Shown piece after piece: positions 12,205 through 19,935 of a DNA stretch of 64,000 bases. Both the position numbers and the translations under genes were made by a program. The DNA is from Escherichia coli (GTDB lineage Bacteria > Pseudomonadota > Gammaproteobacteria > Enterobacterales > Enterobacteriaceae). Location: the NCBI RefSeq assembly GCF_002854065.1, contig NZ_CP024147.1; one strand, 5' to 3'. Every line of letters starts with the position of its first letter. Positions within the stretch are counted from its first letter, which is position 1. The notes beneath the pieces are model-generated. The model was not told where the DNA came from and did not search any database. It was given only the letters and a program-made list of their open reading frames with translations.

Positions 12205-12280
12205 AGCCGCTAAGATATTAAAGGATGTGTCAAAGATGCATACCCCGATCGAGGTAAAACCTGTAGCAGGATCAAAAGAG
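12205..12280 (-). promoter_or_regulatory. napF promoter region: NarP/NarL 7-2-7 heptamer pair (about 12241..12256, TACCCCG-AT-CGAGGTA), candidate -10 TAATAT (about 12215..12220 on minus strand), weak candidate FNR half-site ATCAA about 20 bp further upstream
   Basis: Inverted heptamer pair read directly from the sequence; spacing to the -10 candidate fits the known napF P1 architecture (NarP at -44.5, FNR at -64.5). Only one good FNR half-site is visible. Coordinates approximate (±2). Confidence 0.55.
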
Positions 12281-12533
12281 TGGCGGGAAGCGTGGCAAAA
12301 ACGGGCTTTTGCTCACATTTCAAATGGTTATAAATATATTTATATAGCGATTAATTCACCAGAGATATTTCTGCTGGTTTGTTCTCTCATCAGAATTTAA
12401 CACTAAAAGAGCAGGTAAAATTGTCTGAATATTCTTTAAGTTATTCATAAAGCAAATTAATAAATCTGATGAATATGTTAACCTTCAGCGACATCATCGG
12501 TGCAAACCTATAAATGAAGAAGGAAAGCAAAAA

Positions 12534-13022
12534 ATGAAGACCATTCTACCTGCAGTATTGTTTGCCGCTTTCGCCACCACTTCCGCCTGGGCGGCAGAGA
12601 GCGTCCAGCCACTGGAAAAAATCGCGCCTTATCCACAAGCTGAAAAAGGCATGAAGCGTCAGGTGATTCAGTTAACCCCGCAAGAAGATGAATCTACCCT
12701 GAAAGTAGAACTGTTAATCGGTCAGACGCTGGAAGTCGATTGCAATTTTCATCGTCTCGGCGGGAAGCTGGAAAGCAAAACGCTGGAAGGCTGGGGCTAT
12801 GATTATTATGTCTTTGATAAAGTTAGCTCGCCGGTTTCCACGATGATGGCCTGCCCGGATGGCAAGAAAGAGAAGAAATTTGTCACCGCGTATCTGGGCG
12901 ATGCTGGAATGCTGCGTTACAACAGCAAGCTGCCGATCGTGGTGTATACGCCAGACAATGTAGATGTGAAGTACCGCGTCTGGAAGGCGGAAGAGAAAAT
13001 TGACAACGCGGTAGTTCGCTAA
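12534..13022 (+). CDS. eco: Ecotin, periplasmic serine protease inhibitor
   Basis: 162-aa ORF with signal peptide; sequence recognised as ecotin. Confidence 0.95.
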
Positions 13023-19892: not shown

Positions 19893-19916
19893 TGAAAAAA
19901 GGGCCCGCAGGCCCTT
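19893..19916 (-). terminator. Rho-independent terminator downstream of ompC
   Basis: GC hairpin GGGCC-TGC-GGGCC followed by a T-run on the minus strand, just after the ompC stop. Confidence 0.65.
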
Positions 19917-19935
19917 TGTTCGATATCAATCGAGA

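What the first reader, a model, noticed from the sequence alone, without database searches (positions are those of the whole stretch)
12205..12280. napF promoter: clear NarP/NarL 7-2-7 site but only a degenerate FNR site visible
The inverted heptamer pair TACCCCG-AT-CGAGGTA is unambiguous and correctly spaced from a TAATAT -10 candidate. At the expected FNR position, about 20 bp upstream, I can see only one good half-site (ATCAA). Either the FNR site is naturally asymmetric here or I have mis-registered it.
Basis: partly seen in the sequence, partly recalled or inferred. Interest (0 to 1): 0.2.

Follow-up and report, generated by a model that had tools for sequence, protein, structure and literature searches.

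The report
E. coli napF promoter, known sites
This is the well-studied control region of the E. coli periplasmic nitrate reductase (napF) operon: the NarP/NarL site is real, and the FNR site beside it really does have only one good half, so the finding is correct but ordinary.

Summary
The window carries the E. coli napF-eco intergenic region, and napF is on the minus strand at 11633..12127. Read on the napF strand, the 7-2-7 NarP/NarL site is TACCTCG-AT-CGGGGTA (12256..12241). Exactly 20 bp upstream, centre to centre, lies TTGATCCTGCTACA (12275..12262). Its promoter-distal half, TTGAT, is perfect. Its promoter-proximal half, CTACA, matches ATCAA at 2 of 5 positions. I built a PWM from 63 ChIP-supported FNR sites. 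It ranks this 14-mer first in 12200..12330 but scores it at only -2.95 bits, and about 1% of random positions score as well. No strong symmetric FNR site exists anywhere in the intergenic region or in seven orthologous regions. The register is right. With the 7-2-7 at -40..-49 as published, the FNR centre is -64.5. The published FNR ChIP-seq summit maps within about 7-14 bp of the site centre. TTGAT is invariant across Escherichia, Citrobacter and Leclercia, and the other half never reaches consensus. So the site is naturally asymmetric, not mis-registered. One correction: the -10 hexamer invariant in all eight sequences is TATCTT (12217..12212). Already known; low interest.

The parts
12262..12275 (-). 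FNR site TTGATCCTGCTACA, centred at -64.5. The promoter-distal half TTGAT (12275..12271) is consensus. The promoter-proximal half CTACA (12266..12262) matches ATCAA at 2 of 5 positions.
   Evidence: It is the top PWM hit in 12200..12330, at -2.95 bits. Its centre is 20 bp from the 7-2-7 centre. TTGAT is invariant in 8 of 8 sequences from three genera. The Myers 2013 ChIP summit maps to about 12276-12282.
12241..12256 (.). NarP/NarL 7-2-7 inverted heptamer pair, TACCTCG-AT-CGGGGTA on the napF strand, centred at -44.5.
   Evidence: It is the only exact match to TACYYMNNNNKRRGTA in the window, against 0.06 expected. 13 of 16 columns are invariant across three genera. A held paper gives -40 to -49 for the napF 7-2-7 (PMC4549865). 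K-12 differs at 12252, where it has the perfect palindrome TACCCCGATCGGGGTA.
12212..12217 (-). -10 hexamer TATCTT, at -13..-8 relative to the inferred start. It is the likely -10 of the main FNR- and NarP-dependent promoter.
   Evidence: All 6 columns are invariant in all 8 sequences. The position follows from the -44.5 anchor. Assigning it to promoter P1 is inference plus my memory of Stewart et al. 2003.
12215..12220 (-). It overlaps TATCTT by 3 bp and would fit a start site 3 nt further upstream (the minor promoter P2).
   Evidence: The sequence is present. Its first T becomes A (AAATAT) in Citrobacter and Leclercia. The existence of P2 is from memory. A held paper refers to 'the proximal promoter', which implies more than one.
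12204..12204 (-). Inferred transcription start (+1) of the main napF promoter. It gives a 77-nt leader before the napF GTG at 12127.
   Evidence: Derived by placing the 7-2-7 centre at -44.5. No start-site data could be read here.
12326..12349 (.). AT-rich palindrome CGCTATATAAATATATTTATAACC, centred at -133.5. It is the probable ModE operator.
   Evidence: The centre was computed. The palindrome is kept in Escherichia and Citrobacter, for example GTTATATAAT-TGA-TTATATAAC. ModE activation of nap is stated in a held review. The -133.5 figure is from my memory of McNicholas and Gunsalus 2002.
12299..12320 (-). CRP-like 22-mer AAATGTGAGCAAAAGCCCGTTT, centred at -105.5. The left half is perfect and the right half poor. 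It is the probable Crp site that mediates catabolite control.
   Evidence: It holds the only TGTGA/TCACA pentamer in the intergenic region. The block TTGAAATGTGAGCAAAAGC is conserved in Escherichia and Citrobacter. That a Crp site lies upstream of the FNR site is from my memory of the Stewart et al. 2009 abstract; only the title was seen here.
11633..12127 (-). napF coding sequence (164 aa, GTG start), the first gene of the nap operon. napD (11380..11643) and napA (8897..11383) follow; the later genes were not examined here.
   Evidence: ORF list and RefSeq annotation of identical DNA.

Best explanation
This is the known control region of the E. coli napF (periplasmic nitrate reductase) operon, transcribed leftward on the minus strand.

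A dimer of the oxygen sensor FNR binds TTGATCCTGCTACA, centred at -64.5. Only the promoter-distal half matches the consensus, so binding is intrinsically weak. Phospho-NarP binds the 7-2-7 palindrome centred at -44.5, one face-aligned pair of helical turns downstream. Together the two proteins recruit RNA polymerase to a promoter that has a usable -10 (TATCTT) but no -35. Phospho-NarL competes for the same 7-2-7 site.

The weak, one-sided FNR site makes expression depend on both signals, anaerobiosis and low nitrate or nitrite.

Shown here:
- the identity of the locus;
- the sequences, spacing and conservation of the sites;
- the absence of any better FNR site;
- the coincidence with the published ChIP summit.

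Taken from the literature: regulation by FNR, NarP and NarL.

Inferred: that the site's weakness is what enforces co-dependence.
For: - **Locus identity.** 100% match to E. coli chromosomes, flanked by napF, napD, yojO and eco.
- **K-12 comparison.** The FNR 14-mer is identical in K-12. The only difference within the FNR-to-7-2-7 stretch (12241..12275) is one Y-to-Y change in the 7-2-7 at 12252.
- **PWM scan.** The site ranks first within 12200..12330. The best score anywhere in the intergenic region is 5.68 bits, against a minimum of 11.9 bits for the training sites.
- **Geometry.** FNR spans -71..-58 and the 7-2-7 spans -52..-37. This matches the published -40..-49 for the 7-2-7.
- **ChIP data.** Myers 2013 Table S5 lists an FNR peak at napF/yojO with PatSer ln(p) -5.37, in the weakest 12.5% of 208 peaks. 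The summit converts to window 12276-12282.
- **Conservation.** TTGAT 5/5, 7-2-7 13/16 and TATCTT 6/6 columns are invariant across Escherichia, Citrobacter and Leclercia. The site stays at a fixed -147..-149 from the napF start codon.
- **Population.** 5405 of 5426 complete E. coli genomes carry one of two 50-bp alleles with this exact FNR 14-mer.
- **Literature statements.** FNR and NarP-P activate and NarL-P blocks NarP-P (PMC9262595). FNR-dependent transcription needs NarP co-activation (PMC3688515).
Against: - On sequence alone the FNR 14-mer cannot be told from chance. About 1% of window 14-mers score as well, and 0.6 such hits are expected in 131 bp at the published p-value.
- The ChIP peak was called by only one of three ChIP-seq peak finders plus ChIP-chip.
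- A second half-site-like element, GTGAGCAAAAGCCC at 12303..12316, scores almost the same (-3.37 bits).
- -64.5 is not a canonical FNR activation position.
- The primary footprinting and mutagenesis papers could not be read here. The -64.5 assignment therefore rests on my memory of those papers plus the geometry computed here.
Confidence: 0.93

Rival explanations
1. The FNR site is mis-registered. The functional site would be another element in the intergenic region, such as GTGAGCAAAAGCCC (12303..12316, centre -105.5) or TTGGTCGCTCTCAA in the leader (12160..12173).
For: The PWM scores are similar or better: -3.37 and +2.17 bits, against -2.95 for the site at -64.5. ChIP-seq resolution is tens of base pairs.
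Against: - The leader hit loses its right half even in the closest relatives, reading CTCTG in the GTDB E. coli representative L002 (NapF 96% identical to the window's) and in E. albertii. It also lies downstream of the inferred start.
- The -105.5 element begins with TGTGA, a CRP half-site rather than an FNR one. It is 33-39 bp from the ChIP summit, against 7-14 bp for the -64.5 site.
- Neither alternative has a perfect TTGAT.
Confidence: 0.03
2. The TTGAT half-site is a chance occurrence and FNR controls napF only indirectly, for example through NarP levels or another factor.
For: The motif match is at chance level. The ChIP signal is weak.
Against: - TTGAT is invariant at a fixed position in three genera, while the flanking spacer (12276..12298) keeps only 4 of 23 columns.
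- The ChIP summit coincides with the site.
- The literature describes direct co-activation.
Confidence: 0.02
3. The reader's TAATAT is the -10 of the main regulated promoter, rather than TATCTT.
For: TAATAT is the closer match to TATAAT, at 5 of 6 positions against 4 of 6. It lies only 3 bp upstream of TATCTT.
Against: - With the 7-2-7 at -44.5, TAATAT falls at -16..-11, which is too far from +1.
- Its critical first T is lost in Citrobacter and Leclercia (AAATAT), while TATCTT is invariant.
Confidence: 0.2

Closest known systems
E. coli K-12 napF operon control region (Darwin and Stewart 1995; Darwin et al. 1998; Stewart et al. 2003, 2009; McNicholas and Gunsalus 2002)
   Same: It is the same locus. 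The FNR 14-mer, the -10 region, the ModE-like palindrome and the CRP-like element are identical to MG1655. The geometry reproduces -44.5, -64.5 and -133.5.
   Different: There is one base difference inside the 7-2-7. The window has TACCTCG where K-12 has TACCCCG (position 12252). This minority allele occurs in 444 of 5426 complete genomes, including O157:H7 and O145. Both bases fit the Y of TACYYMT.
Canonical FNR-activated promoters with a symmetric site near -41.5, such as narG, nirB and narK
   Same: The same regulator and the same TTGAT recognition element. These promoters are also co-regulated by NarL and/or NarP.
   Different: Those sites are near-perfect palindromes: TTGATCGTTATCAA and TTGATTTACATCAA, with PatSer ln(p) of -13 to -16.5. 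They overlap the -35 region. The napF site has one consensus half, ln(p) -5.37, and lies at -64.5, upstream of the response-regulator site.
Other 7-2-7 NarP/NarL targets (fdnG, nirB, nrfA, yeaR)
   Same: An inverted TACYYMT heptamer pair with a 2-bp spacer, bound by both NarP and NarL dimers.
   Different: At napF the 7-2-7 lies between the FNR site and the core promoter. NarL antagonises rather than mimics NarP there.

Membership tests
FNR binding site | Match to the TTGAT-N4-ATCAA consensus or PWM at a predictive threshold | tested here: not met
   7 of 10 consensus positions match, 5/5 in the left half and 2/5 in the right. The PWM score is -2.95 bits against a training minimum of 11.9. The published PatSer ln(p) of -5.37 is well short of the authors' -10.75 threshold.
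FNR binding site | In vivo occupancy by FNR at that position | tested here: met
   The published ChIP-seq/ChIP-chip peak at napF/yojO has its summit at 2301669 or 2301675 (U00096.2). Converted here, that is window 12276-12282, within about 7-14 bp of the site centre at 12268.5. The signal is weak: one of three ChIP-seq callers plus ChIP-chip.
FNR binding site | Conservation of the recognition half-site in orthologous promoters | tested here: met
   TTGAT is invariant in the window, in K-12 and in 7 orthologues from Escherichia, Citrobacter and Leclercia. It stays at -147..-149 from the napF start.
FNR binding site | FNR-dependent transcription that requires the site | not testable with these tools
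   Held papers state FNR dependence. I recall site mutagenesis and footprinting from Darwin et al. 1995 and 1998, but those papers are not held.
NarL/NarP 7-2-7 site | Two inverted TACYYMT heptamers separated by 2 bp | tested here: met
   Each heptamer matches at 6 of 7 positions, with position 7 G instead of T. The exact pattern for positions 1-6 is unique in 64 kb against 0.06 expected. With full degeneracy and 2 mismatches allowed it is not above chance, at 3 against 2.6.
NarL/NarP 7-2-7 site | Position and identity as published for napF | tested here: met
   A held paper gives -40 to -49 for the napF 7-2-7. Another lists napF among the four genes with reported 7-2-7 sites. 13 of 16 columns are invariant across three genera.
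Sigma-70 promoter | -10 hexamer with A at position 2 and T at position 6, suitably placed before the start | tested here: met
   TATCTT lies at -13..-8 and TAATAT at -16..-11 relative to the inferred +1. TATCTT is invariant.
Sigma-70 promoter | -35 hexamer 16-18 bp upstream of the -10 | tested here: not met
   The consensus scan finds no promoter on the minus strand. The TTGACA at -29..-24 is only 10 bp from TATCTT and 7 bp from TAATAT. A missing -35 is expected for an activator-dependent promoter.
Sigma-70 promoter | Mapped transcription start | not testable with these tools
   +1 = 12204 is derived from the published -44.5 numbering. No start-site data could be read.

The most novel reading that the evidence does not exclude
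The promoter-proximal half of the FNR site is not just degenerate but held in a specific non-consensus form. It reads GC(A/T)ACAG in 7 of the 8 aligned sequences, and no orthologue drifts toward ATCAA. This would suggest selection for a deliberately one-sided site. Such a site could keep FNR occupancy dependent on NarP, or the proximal half could be read through a contact other than canonical FNR half-site recognition. E. coli proper carries two derived changes, GGCAACA to TGCTACA, which raise the PWM score from -7.8 to -3.0 bits.
Probability: 0.15. Interest if true: 0.3.

Novelty: already known. Interest (0 to 1): 0.06.

Why it matters
It matters little beyond annotation. The exercise confirms that a textbook promoter is where it should be. 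It also shows that a functional, ChIP-occupied FNR site can sit far below any usable PWM threshold.

That second point is a useful caution for motif-based regulon prediction. Here the site is recovered only through its fixed 20-bp register to the NarP site, through conservation of a single half-site, and through experimental data.

Tried and rejected
- **Primary papers.** I tried to read Darwin 1998, Stewart 2003 and Stewart 2009 by PubMed id and by PMC id. None is held.
- **Text searches for positions.** Searches for '64.5' and '44.5' with napF returned only chemistry papers that match NaPF6.
- **Reporter sequence.** The supplement of the NAR 2022 paper might have given the -85..+19 fusion sequence, but it is not held.
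- **Promoter scan.** The sigma-70 consensus scan found nothing on the napF strand.
- **Orthologue scan.** The other 14 loci are distant ferredoxin-like proteins and were ignored.
- **Other FNR PWM hits in the intergenic region.**
  - 12484..12497, near eco, scores 5.68 bits. It lies 286 bp upstream of the inferred napF start, next to eco.
  - 12160..12173, in the napF leader, scores 2.17 bits and is not conserved.
  - 12303..12316 is CRP-like rather than FNR-like.
- **PWM limitation.** My PWM was trained on sites already thresholded at ln(p) <= -10.75, so it over-penalises rare bases. The published PatSer value of -5.37 is the better absolute measure.

Full report
**Locus.** The finding lies between a minus-strand ORF of 164 aa (11633..12127, GTG start) and a plus-strand ORF of 162 aa (12534..13022). 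A 961-bp query across the region is 100% identical to E. coli chromosomes. It is present in 5421 of 5426 complete genomes, and the annotated features are napD, napF, yojO and eco. This is therefore the napF-eco intergenic region of E. coli, and napF is transcribed leftward. All elements below are read on the minus strand.

**The observation.**
- Upstream of it lies TTGATCCTGCTACA (12275..12262).
- TAATAT is at 12220..12215.
- The centres of the two protein sites, 12268.5 and 12248.5, are exactly 20 bp apart.

**Is it more than chance?**
- *7-2-7 site.* An exact match to TACYYMNNNNKRRGTA occurs once in the window against 0.06 expected. The looser test, with the full heptamer and two mismatches allowed, gives 3 against 2.6 expected and is uninformative.
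- *FNR candidate.* Three mismatches to TTGATN4ATCAA is common: 318 in the window against 230 expected.

**PWM scan.** I built a symmetrised PWM from the 63 ChIP-supported sites printed in Table S6 of Myers et al. 2013.
- The napF 14-mer scores -2.95 bits, against 11.9 to 21.8 bits for the training sites.
- 0.96% of all window 14-mers do as well.
- Nothing in the whole 406-bp intergenic region exceeds 5.7 bits, so no strong symmetric site sits at another offset.

The authors' own PWM gave ln(p) = -5.37 for the best motif under the napF/yojO peak. That falls in the weakest 12.5% of 208 scored peaks and far from their -10.75 prediction threshold.

**Register.**
- A held paper places the napF 7-2-7 at -40 to -49 (PMC4549865).
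- Anchoring its centre at -44.5 puts +1 at window 12204. The FNR 14-mer then spans -71..-58, centre -64.5.
- The AT-rich palindrome CGCTATATAAATATATTTATAACC (12349..12326) is then centred at -133.5.
- The values -64.5 and -133.5 are the ones I remember for the Fnr and ModE sites, from Darwin et al. 1998 and McNicholas and Gunsalus 2002. Those papers are not held, so this is a consistency check and not a citation.

**In vivo occupancy.**
- Myers et al. list an FNR ChIP peak at napF/yojO with its summit at 2301669 (Table S5) or 2301675 (Table 2), in U00096.2 coordinates.
- I fixed the offset to NC_000913.3 using a site that appears both in their Table S6 and in K-12: TTGTTCGATATCAA, listed at 2309648 and found at 2311626.
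- I fixed the offset from NC_000913.3 to the window as 2291370.
- The summit then falls at window 12276-12282, within about 7-14 bp of the site centre.
- The peak was called by one of three ChIP-seq algorithms plus ChIP-chip, in medium without nitrate. That is consistent with weak occupancy when NarP is inactive.

**Conservation.**
- *Source of orthologues.* A NapF-based scan of one genome per species returned seven usable orthologues: the GTDB E. coli representative (NapF 96% identical to the window's), E. albertii, four Citrobacter and one Leclercia.
- *FNR site.* In the alignment, TTGAT is invariant and stays at -147..-149 from the napF start codon. The other half reads CTACA in the window and in K-12, CAACA in the GTDB E. 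coli representative L002, E. albertii and Citrobacter, and CTACT in Leclercia. It never approaches ATCAA.
- *No better site elsewhere.* No orthologous upstream region contains a better FNR site.
- *Invariant columns.* The counts are:

| Element | Invariant columns |
|---|---|
| TTGAT | 5/5 |
| 7-2-7 | 13/16 |
| TATCTT | 6/6 |
| spacer upstream of the FNR site (12276..12298) | 4/23 |

- *Within E. coli.* 4961 complete genomes carry the K-12 50-bp allele and 444 carry the window's allele. These differ only at 12252, inside the 7-2-7. None carries the CAACA form.

The asymmetry is therefore an old and stable feature, not a reading error.

**The -10 element.**
- TAATAT lies at -16..-11 relative to the inferred +1.
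- The overlapping TATCTT (12217..12212) lies at -13..-8 and is invariant in all eight sequences.
- The first T of TAATAT is A in Citrobacter and Leclercia.
- I recall that Stewart et al. 2003 described a second start 3 nt upstream (P2), and TAATAT would serve that start. A held paper's phrase 'the proximal promoter' agrees that there is more than one.
- The consensus promoter scan finds no -35/-10 pair on this strand, as expected for an activator-dependent promoter.

**Mechanism.**
[quoted passage not shown] NarL-P blocks NarP-P by binding the same site. FNR-dependent transcription requires NarP co-activation. ModE activates and IscR represses.
- *From the anatomy.* A one-sided FNR site at -64.5 is followed two helical turns later by a high-quality NarP palindrome, which abuts a promoter with no -35.
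- *Inference.* The weak FNR site makes productive occupancy depend on NarP, so the promoter acts as an AND gate for anaerobiosis and low nitrate or nitrite.

**Rivals.**
- A mis-registered FNR site is unlikely. The leader hit at 12160..12173 is not conserved. The hit at 12303..12316 begins with TGTGA, a CRP half-site, and is further from the ChIP summit.
- Chance is unlikely, given the invariant half-site at a fixed position and the ChIP peak.

**Verdict.** The -10 assignment needs the minor correction above. The region is already known and of low interest.

Noticed in passing
window 12236..12400 (+): RefSeq annotates a 54-aa CDS, yojO, lying entirely over the napF control region (NarP, FNR, CRP-like and ModE-like sites). 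The frame carries in-frame stop codons in E. albertii and in the GTDB E. coli representative L002. Its ATG is absent in Citrobacter and Leclercia. Its apparent conservation is probably that of the regulatory sites, not of a protein.
   Followed up: partly
window 12252: There is a SNP inside the NarP/NarL 7-2-7. The window has TACCTCG, and that allele is in 444 of 5426 complete E. coli genomes, including O157:H7 and O145. K-12 and 4961 genomes have TACCCCG, which makes a perfect 16-bp palindrome. Both bases fit the consensus Y.
   Followed up: yes
window 12299..12320 (-): The CRP-like sequence AAATGTGAGCAAAAGCCCGTTT is centred at -105.5. Its left half is perfect and its right half poor, so this is a second one-sided CRP/FNR-family site in the same promoter. 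It is conserved in Escherichia and Citrobacter but not in Leclercia. It is probably the Crp site of Stewart et al. 2009, which I recall from memory.
   Followed up: partly
L004 and L005 (Citrobacter), aligned to window 12241..12256: The Citrobacter 7-2-7 reads TACCCCAATTGGGGTA. Position 7 of both heptamers has changed symmetrically (G to A and C to T), which preserves a perfect palindrome. C. youngae ATCC 29220 (L007) shows the half-changed intermediate, TACCCCGATTGGGGTA.
   Followed up: no
window 63355..63368 (+): This is the best FNR PWM hit in the whole window: TTGACAGAAATCAA at 15.3 bits, above the weakest training site. It appears to lie inside a coding region. A second strong hit, TTGTTCGATATCAA at 19916..19929, is listed by Myers et al. 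as a predicted site near apbE without a ChIP peak.
   Followed up: no
window 12228..12233 (-): A perfect TTGACA sits at -29..-24. That is only 7-10 bp from the -10 hexamers, so it cannot act as their -35. It is not conserved outside Escherichia, although the adjacent ACACATCCT is invariant in all eight sequences and is unexplained.
   Followed up: no
window 12166..12182 (-): A terminator-like hairpin followed by a T-run (GCGGTTTATTTGGTCGC TCTCAATTTT) lies inside the 77-nt napF leader. A held review mentions an ArcZ sRNA interaction with napF mRNA.
   Followed up: no
window about 12503..12535: The window and K-12 fall out of register just upstream of the eco start codon. This looks like a 1-bp indel in or near the A-run before the ATG. 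I did not examine it further.
   Followed up: no
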